Source of the DNA: Escherichia coli
Lineage (GTDB): Bacteria > Pseudomonadota > Gammaproteobacteria > Enterobacterales > Enterobacteriaceae
Direction: 5' to 3' (one strand)
Length of the DNA: 64,000 bases
Assembly (NCBI RefSeq): GCF_030013205.1
Contig: NZ_CP122648.1
Below are positions 19,601 through 28,009 of the stretch, in pieces. Made by a program: the position numbers. Every line of letters starts with the position of its first letter. Within the stretch, counting starts at the first letter, position 1.

Positions 19601-22600
19601 TGCTGCAACCAGGCGGCCTGAACACCACGTCGGTGAAAAGTGGACAGCAATGGGATGCGCCAAATGGCTGGGCTCCCCTGCAATGGGTGGCGACAGAAGG
19701 GTTGCAAAACTACGGGCAGAACGAGGTGGCGATGGACATTAGCTGGCACTTCCTGACCAATGTTCAGCACACTTATGACCGGGAGAAGAAGCTGGTCGAG
19801 TAATATGATGTCAGCACCACCGGAACAGGGGGCGGCGGTGGCGAATATCCATTACAGGATGGCTTTGGCTGGACCAATGGCGTGACGCTGAAAATGCTGG
19901 ATTTGATCTGCCCGAAAGAGCAACCGTGTGACAATGTTCCGGCGACGCGTCCACTCAGTGAATCAACAACACAGCCGGTAAAACAAAAAGAGGCGGAACC
20001 TACGCCTTAACTTTGCTGTATATCGAGCAATGCCATTATGTGCATAAAATTGGCATTGCTCTTTTTTCGCCACGAAATGCCCCCCATTCTACGGTCTATG
20101 CCTTTATTTTCTTTTATCAGAGAAGATTTTAATTTTATTTTATCAATTTGTTAATCATTACACCTCTATTTATATTTTTCGCCACTCCGCCATTCTCCCT
20201 GACAATTTTCTTGTGGAACAAAGTGTTATTTAAGCAACAAGCAAATCATTCTGTCTCTTTAGACAAATTTTGACATCAAACATGATTTTTTTCGATATAT
20301 ATGTAAATATATAGCGGTTTTAATTATCAGGATATAACTTATGTCACTAACCAGACGGAGGTTTACACAGATTCTTGCGTCGACGTTGTTCCTGCATCAT
20401 CTGCCTTCTTTTGCACAATCAGTCAAATTCTGGGCCTCACTGACGCTTCCCGAAGCCCAAAACATTACACGCATCGTCAGCGCAGGTGCGCCCGCCGATT
20501 TGCTATTGCTGGCTGTCGCGCCAGAAAAAATGGTCGGTTTTTCCTCTTTTGATTTTGCCCGTCAGGCATTAATTCCATTGCCAGAGCACATTCGCCAGTT
20601 ACCCAGGCTGGGACGACTCGCCGGGCGCGCCAGCACACTCTCGCTGGAAGGGCTTATGGCGTTACATCCCGATTTGGTCGTTGATTGCGGCAATACGGAT
20701 GAAACCTGGATCTCCCAGGCACGGCAGGTTAGCGAACAGACACAAATACCCTGGTTATTGCTTAACGGGAAACTGGAACAATCAGCAGAACAGTTAACAA
20801 CGCTTGGCAAAACGTTAGGCGAAGAGCACCGCGCCGCAGAACAAGCCAATCTCGCCAGCCGCTTCGTTGGTGAAGCTCAGGCATTCGCCACCTCACCCGC
20901 CGCTAACCTCAGCTTTTATGCTGCGCGCGGTCCTCGAGGGCTGGAAACGGGCTTACAGGGTTCGTTGCATACCGAGGCGGCGGAATTATTAGGTTTGCAT
21001 AACGTCGCGCCAATAGCCGATCGCCACGGTCTGACACAGGTTTCCATGGAAAATCTCCTGCGCTGGCAGCCGGATATTATTCTGGTTCAGGAGGCCGTTA
21101 CTGCAGATTTTATTCGTCGTGATCCTCTCTGGCAGGGCGTGAAAGCGGTTGCGGAACAACGCATCTTATTTTTAAGTGGCCTGCCCTTTGGCTGGCTGGA
21201 TGCCCCGCCGGGAATCAACCGTCTTCTGGGATTACGCAGACTTCACGCCTGGCTGGATCCCGCCATCAATCGCCAGTTTAAAAGTGACATGCAGCATTAC
21301 GCCCAACTGTTCTGGCATTGCCCATTAAGTGACGCCGACTATCAAAAATTGGTGGCGAGCTAATGAGAACCGTAAACGGATGTATTTTGCTGCTGGCAGC
21401 TATCAGTATCACTTTTGCCGCCGTAAGTGGGGCTTATCATCTCGATATACAGCAACTGCTGGCGCTCATTCTGCGTCAAGAAAATGTTCCTGTGCAGGAA
21501 CAAATTGTCTTCTGGCAAATCCGCGTGCCGCGTATTCTTGCTGCGCTGTTTCTGGGCGCGGCGCTGGCAGGGGCCGGAACCACCTATCAGGGAATGTTCC
21601 GTAATCCCTTAGTGTCACCGGATATTTTAGGCGTCTCCGCCGGTGCCGGACTTGGTGCCTGCGCGGCAATCCTGTGGGGATTATCCATTGTTTACATCCA
21701 GCTGTACGCATTTTGCGGCGGGCTGATGGTGGTCGCGGGCGTCTGGTTGATTACGCGTCGGGTGACCCGCCACGATCCGATCTTAACCCTGGTGCTGGTA
21801 GGCATTGCGTTAGGAACGTTGTGCGGAGCGGGGATATCGCTAATAAAAACGCTGGCCGATCCTTACACCCAGTTACCGTCAATTACCTTCTGGTTGCTGG
21901 GGGGGCTGTCCACCGTGACCTTACGCGATCTCTGCTATGCTGCACCGATCATTCTCATAGGCTCCTTGCCCCTGTTTTTTCTCCGCTGGCGCATGAATTT
22001 ACTCACGCTTTCCGACGACGAAGCCCGTTCGCTGGGACTGAACGTGACACGTCTGCGCTTTGGATTAATTGTCTGCGCCACACTAATCACCGCCAGCACG
22101 GTAGCAATAGCGGGCATAATTGGTTGGGTCGGCCTGGTCGTTCCGCACATTGCCCGCTTGTTGACCGGTCATAACCATCAGCAGCTGTTGCCCATGGCAA
22201 TGTGTACTGGCGCGATTCTGCTCCTGCTTACCGATACGCTGGCACGCAGCATTGGAACAACAGAAATCCCACTTGGCATTCTGACCGCTTTTGTTGGTGC
22301 ACCGTTTTTCCTGTTTTTGTTGTTACGCGGAGGTCGCCAGTGACTTTGCTTGCCGTCCGTCATGCGTCTCTGGGTTACTCCCGCCATCCGGTGCTACGCG
22401 ACGTGTCCTTCACCCTGTCGCAAGGAACAATTTGTTGTCTGTTAGGAGCCAATGGTTGCGGCAAAACCACACTCATGCGCTCCATTCTTGGCGTTATACC
22501 GTTATTAAAAGGCGAGATCTTACTGGATAGCCTCTCTGTGCAGACACTCAGCCATCGCCAGCGCGCGCAGGCTATTGCCTGGGTGCCGCAGGCGCACGAC

Positions 22601-25600: not shown

Positions 25601-28009
25601 TATGACAAAGAAAGTTTTTATTATCAGGGAACGACCCAACTAAACGATCGTTTTACCCTGAAAAGTCGGCTGTATCGCGATACCTTTGAAAATACGCTGA
25701 TGATGTACAACTCGCTGGCTGATTTGAAAAATAAAAAAGGCAGCTACAGCCATTATTCCGATTACAGCGACGGTGCCGGGTTACAACTGGCAGCCGATGT
25801 GCGTGAAAACGATCTGCTGTCGTTTGCCGTTAACTGGAAAGATGACGTACACCGGGAAAAGGTGCGCCGCACGCCGCTTACGATCGCTATGAAGATCGTA
25901 CCTGGTCGCTCGCCAGTGAATATCAATGGGCTGCTGCCGATAATGTCGATGTCGTGGCTGGAATCAGCTATGACTGGCGCGATAGCGTAGAAGCGAAAAA
26001 ACATGAGAAAGATGGCAGCATCACCCATTATGACGACAACAATCAGTCAGCTTTTAACTGGCAGGTGATGGGGAAATACCACTTTGCCAATGAAGATACG
26101 CTGGCGCTTTCGTACTATGACCGCACACGCTTTCCGACGCTGAAAGAACGCTATACCACGTCCAAACCTGCGTATAACCAGATAGCGATTGTTAACCCGC
26201 AGCTCAAACCGGAACGCGCGCGCGGGGTGGATTTAACCTGGAATGGTGCCTTCACGCACGACTGGGGGTTTGAGGTCAGCGTTTACTATAACCGGGTGAG
26301 TGATGCCATCCTCTCGCACAATATCGATGCCGATACCATTCAAAATCAGAACAGCGGCACGGTGGATTACAGCGGTCTGGATGCCGGTATTAAGGGGAAA
26401 ATCAGCAATATACTGGATGTAGGATTGAGCTACGCCCTGATCCACGCTGATGCCAAACGCAAAGACATCGGCAAGATAACCGATCTGCCAACGCAGACAA
26501 TGACCGCATGGATGACTCTCAAACCGTGGGAGCCGTTAAGCGTAACGCTGTCGGAAGAGGCGCGTTCCTCCAGCTACAGCAACAGTGACGGTTCACAAAA
26601 AGCCGCCGGTTTTGCGGTGACTCACATTCGAGCCGATTACACCTTAGGTCATGGCTTTAGCGTCAATGCGTCGCTCAATAACCTGTTTGATACCCAATAT
26701 GCCTACAGTGAAGGGTTTATTGAAGAAGGTCGCAATTTCTGGGCAGGTATCGAGTATACGTTCTGATGTGAAAGCGGATAGCGGCATCTGTATCGCTATC
26801 CGCCTTATGAAAATCTTATTCTCTTCGCAGGAGGCGGAATACGCCCAGAACGAGAATAGCTCCCACTACCGCCACCAGGAAGCTGTGCAGATTAAAACCA
26901 CTGATGGAGCCGCCAATGCCAAACATGGTCGCCAGCCAGCCGCCGACCACCGCACCGACTATCCCGAGAATACAGGTCAGGAAAAATCCACCACCATCAC
27001 GCCCCGGCATGATTAGCTTGGCGATAATGCCGGCTATCAGGCCAAAAATAATCCAGGCAATAATTCCCATGTTCAGGCCCTCGTTTCGATGAATCGGACG
27101 CAAGAAATGCTTACGTCAACGCTCTAAGTATAGGCAAGGGCGGAATCGATGCTGGGCGTATGTCGGCTGATTTAAGAACAACATGTAAAAAATATTCACG
27201 CATTTGTATTAAGTTTTGTTAACTGTGACCGATAAACCAAAGACAGTTTGTCAGTCAGGAGTTTTTCCGCGTGAGTCATTACCATGAGCAGTTCCTGAAA
27301 CAAAATCCGTTAGCCGTCCTGGGCGTGTTACGCGATTTGCACAAAGCCGCAATTCCTTTGCGTATCAGTTGGAATGGCGGGCAGCTGATCAGCAAAATAC
27401 TGGCAATAACCCCGGATAAACTGGTGCTGGATTTCGGCAGTCAAGCCGAAGATAACAACGCTGTGTTAAAGGCGCAGCACATTACCATTACCGCCGAAAC
27501 CCAGGGCGCTAAAGTCGAATTTACTGTTGAACAACTACAGCAGAGTGAATACTTGCAGCTTCCGGCATTTATTACCGTACCGCCTCCCACCTTGTGGTTT
27601 GTACAACGACGCCGATATTTCCGCATCTCCGCCCCACTCCATCCGCCTTATTTTTGCCAGACCAAACTGGCGGATAACAGTACGTTACGTTTCCGCCTGT
27701 ATGATTTGTCGTTAGGCGGTATGGGCGCATTACTGGAAACAGCAAAGCCTGCCGAATTACACGAAGGCATGCGCTTCGCTCAGATTGAAGTCAACATGGG
27801 GCAATGGGGTGTTTTTCACTTTGACGCCCAGTTAATCTCAATCAGCGAGCGCAAAGTGATTGATGGCAAGAATGAAACCATCACCACTCCCCGTCTGAGC
27901 TTCCGTTTTCTTAACGTCAGCCCGACGGTGGAGCGGCAATTACAGCGGATTATTTTCTCTCTCGAGCGGGAAGCCCGGGAGAAAGCGGACAAAGTGCGCG
28001 ACTGATTTA

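What the first reader, a model, noticed from the sequence alone, without database searches (positions are those of the whole stretch)
20011..26766. Six-gene TonB-dependent uptake island with a methyltransferase and a ModD/QPRTase-like protein between treA and ymgE
Where I recall K-12 having only the small ycgY between treA and ymgE, this window has a co-directional, translationally coupled cluster: FecB-like binding protein, FecCD-like permease, ATPase, class I SAM methyltransferase, ModD-like (NadC-fold) protein and an outer-membrane TonB-dependent receptor. Permease, ATPase and receptor define a high-affinity import route for a metal chelate or similar small molecule. The methyltransferase plus phosphoribosyltransferase-fold protein inside the same operon is not a standard siderophore, haem or cobalamin layout, and suggests chemical modification of the cargo. 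The substrate cannot be read from sequence. An AT-rich 330-bp leader (20011..20340) precedes it and holds a weak Fur-box-like ttgttaatcatta near 20150. The receptor is frameshifted, so the system may be decaying here.
Basis: partly seen in the sequence, partly recalled or inferred. Interest (0 to 1): 0.78.

Follow-up and report, generated by a model that had tools for sequence, protein, structure and literature searches.

The report
Molybdenum-regulated TonB-dependent uptake operon
The six-gene cluster is real but it is probably not an iron system: a perfect, widely conserved binding site for the molybdate sensor ModE sits on its promoter, which points to an uncharacterised outer-membrane-to-cytoplasm route for acquiring molybdenum, carried by about 40% of E. 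coli strains.

Summary
All six genes are present as described, between treA and ymgE: binding protein, FecCD-type permease, ATPase, class I SAM methyltransferase, ModD and a TonB-dependent receptor. The window is identical to porcine E. coli K_EC180. The locus occurs in 2139 of 5426 complete E. coli genomes.

A perfect ModE operator (CGATATATA-N6-TATATAGCG, 20293-20316) lies 25 nt upstream of the first gene and is unique in the window. It is kept at the same place in at least ten enterobacterial genera.

Other evidence also points to molybdenum:
- The permease and ATPase are closest to the Haemophilus molybdate importer MolBC.
- ModD and a Mop molbindin gene are linked to the cluster.
- Receptor relatives in Verrucomicrobia, Kiritimatiellia and Bacteroidota sit beside ModE-like regulator genes and ModE-type palindromes.

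Best reading: a ModE-repressed, TonB-dependent acquisition system for molybdenum or tungsten. The cargo form is unknown, as are the roles of the methyltransferase and ModD.

The receptor frameshift (one A lost from an A5 run) is confined to 13 porcine genomes. The locus is ancestral, not an insertion: K-12 keeps the last 24 nt of the receptor gene. I found no named system in the literature I could search.

The parts
20025..20067 (+). treA intrinsic terminator (GAGCAATGCCA, 15-nt loop, TGGCATTGCTC, T6). It separates treA from the cluster's own promoter region.
   Evidence: Read directly from the sequence.
20270..20275 (+). Candidate -35 hexamer TTGACA. A TTGAC(A/T) element is kept 18-35 nt upstream of the ModE box in the orthologous leaders.
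   Evidence: No convincing -10 was found by the consensus scan; the -10 must lie in or next to the left half-site (inference).
20293..20316 (.). ModE operator CGATATATA-tgtaaa-TATATAGCG. The extended site 20291-20318 matches 20 of 22 specified positions of ATCGNTATATA-N6-TATATANCGAT.
   Evidence: Only match in the 64-kb window and none in 100 shuffles even at 2 mismatches. Conserved in position in other genera. Consensus as quoted in PMC545781.
20329..20334 (+). Ribosome-binding site (cAGGAt), 7 nt before the ATG.
   Evidence: Read from the sequence.
20341..21363 (+). Periplasmic binding protein (Peripla_BP_2 class, 340 aa) with a twin-arginine-type signal (LTRRRFTQ).
   Evidence: Model pLDDT 86. 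The best fold match is the uncharacterised 4pag; the next distinct match is the molybdate-binding MolA, 3psa, TM 0.65.
21363..22343 (+). FecCD/BtuC-type (type II) ABC permease.
   Evidence: Best solved relative is MolB HI1471 at 223 bits, against FhuB 175, HmuU 168 and BtuC 146; NCBIfam.
22340..23098 (+). ABC ATPase.
   Evidence: Best importer ATPase among solved structures is MolC HI1470 at 126 bits; NCBIfam.
23108..23920 (+). Class I SAM-dependent methyltransferase of a distinct, tightly conserved family (36 invariant columns among 25 members).
   Evidence: Model pLDDT 90; it resembles small-molecule N-, O- and C-methyltransferases only generically, TM 0.5-0.6.
23917..24771 (+). ModD (quinolinate phosphoribosyltransferase fold, TIGR01334).
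   Evidence: 497 bits against a cut-off of 179; NadC model 131 bits, below its cut-off of 198. Keeps T-R-K, H-R, E, D and GG of the M. tuberculosis enzyme, but Lys to Phe and Arg to Lys are invariant in 13 members.
24797..26766 (+). TonB-dependent receptor, a pseudogene in this strain (656 aa when intact).
   Evidence: Plug plus barrel. No equivalog cut-off is met. Only weak plug-domain matches to solved receptors.
25857..25860 (+). Frameshift site: an A4 run where intact alleles have A5.
   Evidence: Alignment with the intact allele. The allele is in 13 of 2140 records; the 12 rows listed are porcine isolates.
26743..26766 (+). Last 24 nt of the receptor ORF, which are also retained in K-12 next to ycgY. 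This is the right-hand deletion boundary.

Best explanation
The cluster is a molybdate-responsive (ModE-controlled) operon for TonB-dependent acquisition of molybdenum, and possibly tungsten.

Proposed mechanism:
- When cellular molybdate is sufficient, molybdate-bound ModE binds the operator at 20293-20316. The operator overlaps the -10 and start region of a promoter whose -35 is at 20270, so transcription is shut off.
- When molybdenum is scarce, the operon is expressed.
- The outer-membrane receptor captures the molybdenum species and moves it into the periplasm, using TonB energy.
- The binding protein hands it to a MolBC-like type II ABC importer.
- The methyltransferase and ModD act in the cytoplasm, on the cargo or on molybdenum handling.

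Shown here: the genes, the operator and its conservation, and the homologies. Inferred: repression rather than activation, the direction of transport, and molybdenum as the cargo. Unknown: whether the cargo is the bare oxyanion or an organic molybdenum complex, and what the two enzymes do.

In this particular strain the receptor is broken, so at most the inner-membrane part can work.
For: 1. A perfect core ModE operator, unique in the window, with none found in shuffles. The consensus is quoted in PMC545781.
2. The box is the conserved block in otherwise diverged leaders of E. albertii, Citrobacter, Enterobacter, Klebsiella sp. and Providencia. It is also present in Pectobacterium, Morganella and Serratia, and in degenerate form in Proteus.
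3. A second box precedes the receptor gene in Providencia, Pectobacterium, Proteus, Morganella and Serratia.
4. In the roughly 1.3 Mb of loci scanned, every hit with 2 or fewer mismatches lay next to cluster genes. The later loci, scanned, gave the same result.
5. Edwardsiella tarda has only the methyltransferase-ModD pair, and it too is preceded by a box.
6. In Pectobacterium a di-Mop molbindin gene (TIGR00638, 139 bits) lies directly upstream.
7. The permease and ATPase are closest to Haemophilus MolB and MolC. That is a type II importer shown to carry molybdate, and it lies next to modD.
8. MolA is the closest characterised fold for the binding protein.
9. Receptor relatives in other phyla have molybdenum-linked neighbours:
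   - In a Spartobacteria MAG and a related metagenome contig, the receptor gene is preceded by a ModE N-domain regulator gene (TIGR00637, 60-63 bits) and a ModE-type palindrome. It is followed by the same methyltransferase family.
   - In Prosthecobacter the receptor gene is preceded by a ModE N-domain regulator gene (80 bits) and a palindrome. It is followed by a small Oxidored_molyb-like protein.
   - In Spirosoma the receptor gene has a palindrome upstream and an Oxidored_molyb-like protein downstream, but no regulator gene.
Against: - There is no experimental evidence. ModE binding, molybdate response and transport are all untested.
- The binding protein is only distantly related to MolA (34 bits, 19% identity), and its oxyanion-binding residues were not examined.
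- Molybdate is small enough to cross porins, so a TonB-dependent step is not obviously needed.
- The methyltransferase family also occurs alone, without a ModE box, in Shewanella, Marinobacter and two other gammaproteobacterial MAGs.
- ModE can activate as well as repress. The -10 element could not be placed with confidence.
- The ModE N-domain hits in the distant phyla fall below the curated cut-off (60-80 bits against 98.5).
Confidence: 0.66

Rival explanations
1. The cargo is an organic molybdenum compound rather than free molybdate. It could be a molybdenum-chelate ('molybdophore', for example a catecholate complex) or a molybdopterin or Moco-like cofactor scavenged from the gut. The methyltransferase and ModD would then process or release it in the cytoplasm. 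This is a refinement of the best explanation, not a contradiction of it.
For: - TonB-dependent receptors and type II importers usually carry bulky organometallic cargo (established knowledge).
- Two small-molecule enzymes are inherited with the transporter as one cassette across at least ten genera.
- MolA binds molybdate only weakly, about 100 uM (PMC3928620 and PMC4031551).
- Receptor relatives in Prosthecobacter and Spirosoma sit next to a small protein resembling the Moco-binding domain of sulfite oxidases.
- The methyltransferase model resembles natural-product methyltransferases.
Against: - No biosynthetic or export genes for a chelator are in the cluster.
- The enzymes are modular. Klebsiella sp. 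BIGb0407 lacks ModD, Edwardsiella has the enzymes without a transporter, and Haemophilus has ModD with no methyltransferase reported.
- The Oxidored_molyb matches are weak (24-31 bits).
Confidence: 0.3
2. It is a Fur-controlled iron-chelate or haem uptake system, as the RefSeq names ('iron ABC transporter substrate-binding protein') and the reader's Fur box suggest.
For: - General family membership: Peripla_BP_2, FecCD and a TonB-dependent receptor.
- Other fold neighbours of the binding protein include YiuA and haem-binding proteins.
Against: - The Fur-like site is 12/19, at chance level, and is not conserved.
- No siderophore, haem or dicitrate equivalog cut-off is reached by any component.
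- The only conserved leader element is a ModE operator.
Confidence: 0.06
3. The ModE signal is real, but the system carries something other than molybdenum. Examples are another oxyanion (tungstate only, or vanadate) or a nutrient whose need rises when molybdoenzymes fail.
For: - ModE also responds to tungstate, and its regulon includes genes that are not transporters (established knowledge).
- MolA binds tungstate as well as molybdate.
Against: ModD, Mop and the MolBC similarity are all tied specifically to molybdate or tungstate handling.
Confidence: 0.1
4. The palindrome is an AT-rich promoter feature or the site of another regulator, and the cluster has nothing to do with molybdenum.
For: The site lies in an AT-rich leader. 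No binding experiment exists.
Against: - The flanking CG dinucleotides and the 6-nt spacing are conserved while surrounding bases diverge.
- There were no matches in 100 shuffles.
- The same motif recurs before the receptor gene, before methyltransferase-ModD pairs, and in other phyla next to ModE-like genes.
Confidence: 0.05

Closest known systems
Haemophilus influenzae MolBC-A (HI1470-HI1472) with adjacent modD (HI1473)
   Same: - A type II (BtuCD-like) ABC importer with a class III binding protein, next to a ModD gene.
- MolB and MolC are the closest solved relatives of the permease and ATPase here.
- MolA is the closest characterised fold for the binding protein.
- Its expression is repressed by molybdate.
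   Different: - No TonB-dependent receptor or methyltransferase is reported in the Haemophilus cluster. I could not fetch that locus.
- The binding proteins are only about 19% identical.
- MolBC-A is described as a low-affinity system.
E. coli ModABC-ModE molybdate uptake and its operator
   Same: The same operator consensus, placed over the promoter and start region as at modA, which predicts repression when molybdate is plentiful.
   Different: ModABC is a type I importer with a ModA-type binding protein. It has no outer-membrane receptor and no accessory enzymes. The cluster here shares no components with it.
TonB-dependent receptor plus type II ABC importer systems (BtuB-BtuFCD, FhuA-FhuDBC, ChuA/ShuA-ShuTUV)
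   Same: The overall architecture and the predicted energy coupling.
   Different: - Those systems are regulated by a cobalamin riboswitch or by Fur; neither signal is present here.
- The receptor reaches none of their family cut-offs.
- Those operons do not carry a methyltransferase plus a ModD.
ModD of the Rhodobacter capsulatus and Geobacter sulfurreducens modABCD/modDABC operons (TIGR01334)
   Same: The same protein family, scoring well above the cut-off. It is again linked to molybdenum transport genes and a ModE site.
   Different: There it accompanies the classical ModABC system. Its function is unknown in every case.
[quoted passage not shown]
   Same: It is an outer-membrane step in molybdenum acquisition, and the only one mentioned in a 2025 paper on molybdate uptake.
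   Different: The machinery is entirely different (a type VI secretion substrate and IcmP), with no TonB-dependent receptor.

Membership tests
ModE regulon (molybdate-responsive operons) | An operator matching ATCGNTATATA-N6-TATATANCGAT in the promoter region | tested here: met
   20293-20316 matches the core at 16/16 and the extended site at 20/22. It is unique in the window, with none in shuffles.
ModE regulon (molybdate-responsive operons) | The site is conserved in orthologous loci of other species | tested here: met
   Present with 2 or fewer mismatches before the first gene in nine loci of eight genera (two of them E. coli). Present before the receptor gene in five genera.
ModE regulon (molybdate-responsive operons) | ModE-molybdate binds the site, and expression responds to molybdate and to modE | not testable with these tools
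   Needs a footprint or gel-shift assay and reporter or RT-qPCR assays.
MolBC-A type II molybdate/tungstate importer | The permease and ATPase are orthologous to MolB and MolC | tested here: inconclusive
   MolB is the best solved match by a clear margin (223 bits against 175), and MolC is the best importer ATPase. Orthology was not tested by phylogeny.
MolBC-A type II molybdate/tungstate importer | A MolA-type binding protein that binds the oxyanion | tested here: inconclusive
   34 bits by sequence. It is the second-best distinct fold match, TM 0.65 at 19% identity. Binding residues were not compared.
MolBC-A type II molybdate/tungstate importer | Linkage to modD | tested here: met
   modD is in the operon here and adjacent to molABC in Haemophilus.
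ModD (TIGR01334) | Score above the curated cut-off | tested here: met
   497.5 bits against a cut-off of 178.85.
Quinolinate phosphoribosyltransferase NadC (TIGR00078) | Score above the cut-off and a complete set of active-site residues | tested here: not met
   130.7 bits against a cut-off of 198.4. The Lys of LIKDNH is Phe, and an Arg is Lys, in all 13 members aligned. The roles assigned to these residues are from my memory of the M. tuberculosis structure.
Fur-regulated siderophore or haem uptake | A Fur box better than chance, and conserved | tested here: not met
   Best leader sites match 12-13/19, with about 165 sites of 12 or more matches in the window. They are not conserved in alignment A2.
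Fur-regulated siderophore or haem uptake | The receptor or binding protein reaches a siderophore, haem or dicitrate family cut-off | tested here: not met
   All hits are far below the cut-offs, for example TonB-siderophore 127 against 223 and FecB-like 31 against 320.
Cobalamin uptake (BtuB-BtuFCD) | A cobalamin riboswitch in the leader, and a BtuB equivalog | tested here: not met
   No Rfam match with an E-value below about 1 in 19700-20500. TonB-B12 scores 80 bits against a cut-off of 600.
TonB-dependent transporter | An N-terminal plug, a 22-strand barrel domain, and a C-terminal aromatic residue | tested here: met
   Plug 39-139 and barrel 223-630. The protein ends in ...EYTF. It is frameshifted in this strain.

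The most novel reading that the evidence does not exclude
This receptor defines the first family of TonB-dependent transporters dedicated to molybdenum. It would be spread across Proteobacteria, Verrucomicrobia, Kiritimatiellia and Bacteroidota, and everywhere wired to ModE-type regulators. Its cargo would be an organic molybdenum species (a molybdophore complex or a scavenged molybdopterin-type cofactor), which the co-inherited methyltransferase and ModD process. That would finally give ModD a function.
Probability: 0.3. Interest if true: 0.85.

Novelty: new variant of a known kind. Interest (0 to 1): 0.66.

Why it matters
- Molybdenum uptake in enterobacteria is taught as ModABC plus leakage through sulfate transporters, with free diffusion across the outer membrane. 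An energised, ModE-controlled outer-membrane route in 40% of E. coli strains, and in Proteus, Morganella, Citrobacter, Pectobacterium and others, would change that picture.
- Anaerobic respiration with molybdoenzymes drives enterobacterial blooms in the inflamed gut, so such a route would be relevant there.
- It would add molybdenum to the substrates of TonB-dependent transporters. A 2024 review of those substrates mentions neither molybdenum nor tungsten.
- It would give a concrete experimental handle on ModD, a protein family that has lacked a function since the 1990s, and on an uncharacterised methyltransferase family.
- It would correct the 'iron ABC transporter' label now carried by thousands of genome records.

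Tried and rejected
- Riboswitch in the leader: nothing better than noise.
- Fur control: rejected.
- Consensus promoter and terminator scan: no more sites than in shuffles, and it did not find the promoter.
- Foreign composition: G+C of the cluster (0.51-0.57) is like the flanks, and the synteny shows an ancestral locus.
- Literature: ten full-text searches found no name or study for this cluster. One search was badly framed and wasted. The ModE-site survey of Studholme and Pau and the MolA structure paper are not held. I cannot exclude that this site is already listed in a regulon database such as RegPrecise.
- Source names for the proteins are all generic.
- The fold search with the methyltransferase model gave only generic small-molecule methyltransferases.
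- Pfam and NCBIfam found nothing for the unknown ORFs that follow the methyltransferase in the Spartobacteria MAG (L011) and in the related metagenome contig (L094).
- The Haemophilus mol locus itself could not be fetched.
- One search was an accidental comparison and means nothing.
- 'Plasmid' copies of the locus are 150-540 kb non-mobilisable or 4.9-Mb records, most likely mislabelled chromosome, so I do not claim plasmid carriage.

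
Full report
WHAT IS THERE

The window is 100% identical to the chromosome of E. coli K_EC180, a swine isolate.
- binding protein, 20341-21363
- permease, 21363-22343
- ATPase, 22340-23098
- methyltransferase, 23108-23920
- ModD, 23917-24771
- TonB-dependent receptor, 24797-26766

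Neighbouring genes overlap by 1 or 4 nt or lie 9-25 nt apart, so this is one operon. It follows a clear treA terminator at 20025-20067.

The domain calls hold:
- ModD scores 497 bits against TIGR01334, whose cut-off is 179.
- The methyltransferase is a class I SAM enzyme with only generic family matches.
- The permease is FecCD/BtuC-type.
- The receptor has a plug and a barrel but reaches no curated receptor family.

DISTRIBUTION AND HISTORY

The locus is present in 2139 of 5426 complete E. coli genomes. The rest, including K-12, carry ycgY at this position.

It is not a recent insertion. E. albertii and a Citrobacter have the cluster in the same treA-ymgE synteny. K-12 still carries the last 24 nt of the receptor reading frame next to ycgY. 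The composition of the cluster matches its flanks.

The same six genes, in the same order, occur at other chromosomal positions in Enterobacter, Providencia, Pectobacterium, Proteus mirabilis, Morganella and Serratia. Klebsiella sp. BIGb0407 lacks ModD. Edwardsiella tarda keeps only the methyltransferase-ModD pair.

THE FRAMESHIFT

The receptor is broken by loss of one A from an A5 run at about 25857-25860. An 81-nt probe across the site is matched perfectly in only 13 of 2140 carrier records. The 12 rows listed are porcine isolates, O139:H1 or porcine ETEC. Protein clusters for the receptor are dominated by the 656-aa form. So the system is intact in nearly all carriers, and the decay is a feature of this one clone. 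The same clone also carries a nonsense codon in treA, AAA to TAA at 19801.

REGULATION, THE KEY RESULT

About 165 19-mers in the window do as well or better, and the site is not conserved in orthologous leaders. There is no riboswitch.

I aligned the leaders of six genera. Almost all invariant columns fall in one block just upstream of the start codon. In E. coli that block reads CGATATATA-tgtaaa-TATATAGCG (20293-20316). This is a perfect match to the core of the E. coli ModE operator, ATCGNTATATA-N6-TATATANCGAT, as quoted in PMC545781. It is the only match in 64 kb, and 100 shuffles gave none even with two mismatches allowed.

Every hit with two or fewer mismatches lay next to cluster genes:
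- before the binding-protein gene in E. coli, E. albertii, Citrobacter, Enterobacter, Klebsiella sp., Providencia, Pectobacterium, Morganella and Serratia
- again before the receptor gene in Providencia, Pectobacterium, Proteus, Morganella and Serratia
- before the methyltransferase-ModD pair in Edwardsiella

A TTGAC(A/T) hexamer lies 18-35 nt upstream of the box in these leaders; in E. coli it is TTGACA at 20270. The box would therefore cover the -10 and start region, the arrangement that gives repression at modA. That last step is inference, because I could not place a convincing -10.

INDEPENDENT LINKS TO MOLYBDENUM

1. ModD is the family found in the modABCD or modDABC operons of Rhodobacter and Geobacter, and next to molABC in Haemophilus.
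2. Among solved structures, the permease is closest to MolB HI1471 (223 bits, against 175 for FhuB). The ATPase is closest, among importers, to MolC HI1470. MolBC-A is a type II importer that carries molybdate and is repressed by it.
3. The modelled binding protein (pLDDT 86) is most like an uncharacterised Sulfurospirillum protein, and next most like MolA.
4. In Pectobacterium a di-Mop molbindin gene (139 bits) sits immediately upstream of the cluster.
5. The receptor family extends to other phyla, and its neighbours there are also molybdenum-linked:
   - In a Spartobacteria MAG and a related metagenome contig, a small gene for a ModE N-terminal DNA-binding domain (60-63 bits) is preceded by CGATATAC-N8-ATATATCG. 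It is followed by the receptor, the same methyltransferase family, an unknown gene, and TonB (with ExbB and ExbD in the metagenome contig).
   - In Prosthecobacter a ModE N-domain gene (80 bits) and the palindrome CGATATGTTTGACAAAACATATCG precede the receptor. A 160-aa protein resembling the Moco-binding domain of sulfite oxidases and a CobW-like GTPase follow it.
   - In Spirosoma the receptor has CGTTATATTTGACAGGAAATAACG upstream and the same small domain downstream.

THE TWO ENZYMES

ModD keeps the T-R-K, H-R, Glu, Asp and Gly-Gly motifs of M. tuberculosis quinolinate phosphoribosyltransferase. In all 13 members examined, however, the Lys of LIKDNH is replaced by Phe and an Arg by Lys, and ModD falls below the NadC cut-off. 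It is therefore probably a phosphoribosyltransferase-like enzyme with a substrate other than quinolinate. The roles I assign to these residues come from memory.

The methyltransferase family is sharply conserved, with 36 invariant columns among 25 members. Its confident model (pLDDT 90) resembles small-molecule N-, O- and C-methyltransferases only generically. It also occurs alone, without a ModE box, in Shewanella, Marinobacter and two gammaproteobacterial MAGs.

The two enzymes are modular: each can be present without the other, or without the transporter. I cannot say what they do. One speculative idea is that the methyltransferase disables a chelating group on the cargo, a catechol for instance, and so frees the metal.

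INTERPRETATION

The best-supported reading is a ModE-repressed, TonB-dependent system for acquiring molybdenum or tungsten. Its inner-membrane part is related to MolBC-A.

Whether the cargo is the bare oxyanion or an organic molybdenum species is open. Three things argue for something larger than the oxyanion:
- the use of a TonB-dependent receptor and a type II importer
- the two co-inherited enzymes
- the weak molybdate affinity reported for MolA, about 100 uM

MolBC-A's demonstrated molybdate transport and the linked molbindin argue for the oxyanion.

An iron or Fur system, as the RefSeq product names imply, is poorly supported.

WHAT IS KNOWN

The genes are annotated in thousands of genomes, under generic or misleading names. 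Ten full-text searches found no study or name for the cluster. A 2024 review of TonB-dependent transporter substrates mentions neither molybdenum nor tungsten. A 2025 paper on molybdate uptake cites only the Pseudomonas secreted-ModA/IcmP route for the outer membrane. The original ModE-site survey (Studholme and Pau 2003) and regulon databases could not be consulted, so an earlier purely computational prediction of this site cannot be excluded.

VERDICT

The substantive new point is the molybdenum connection. This is a new variant of a known kind of system, and it is experimentally tractable. Interest is 0.66.

Noticed in passing
window 19801-19803 (within treA, 18313-20010): treA, the periplasmic trehalase gene, carries a nonsense codon (AAA to TAA) 69 codons before its normal stop. 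RefSeq marks it as a pseudogene. This strain therefore has two inactivating mutations within 6 kb.
   Followed up: partly
window 26743-26766 and K-12 locus L003 2333-2356: K-12 keeps the last 24 nt of the receptor reading frame (...AGIEYTF stop) directly beside ycgY. ycgY itself shows no similarity to the cluster. The origin of ycgY was not examined.
   Followed up: partly
window 9260-9278, upstream of ycgV (9738-12605): This is the best Fur-consensus match in the whole window (15/19, GAAAATGATAACCAGTAGC). It lies upstream of the ycgV autotransporter gene and is much better than anything in the cluster's leader.
   Followed up: no
window 31398-33389 and 37911-38369: RefSeq annotates a partial hypothetical gene and a frameshifted hypothetical gene after cvrA, and an IS200C transposase between ycgB and fadR.
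   Followed up: no
L093 8955-9437 (Prosthecobacter) and L092 9019-9519 (Spirosoma): Small proteins of 160-166 aa, weakly resembling the Moco-binding domain of sulfite oxidases, lie immediately downstream of receptor relatives. This may be a periplasmic partner specific to this receptor family.
   Followed up: partly
L086 (Edwardsiella tarda) and protein P0153: E. tarda has only the methyltransferase-ModD pair, behind a ModE box. One E. tarda record encodes an ATPase-methyltransferase fusion of 315 aa, which suggests a transporter in the course of being lost.
   Followed up: no
Plasmid records H43-H51: Nine 'plasmid' records carry the whole locus. They are non-mobilisable replicons of 150-540 kb or 4.9-Mb records, most likely chromosome pieces or chromosomes filed as plasmids.
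   Followed up: partly
L084 11279-11788 (Shewanella mangrovi): A stand-alone copy of the methyltransferase lies about 2.5 kb from a gene with a Nitro_FeMo-Co (dinitrogenase iron-molybdenum cofactor) domain. There is no ModE box. This may be coincidence.
   Followed up: no
window 20341-20420: The binding protein starts with a twin-arginine-type motif (LTRRRFTQ), which suggests export in the folded state by the Tat pathway.
   Followed up: no
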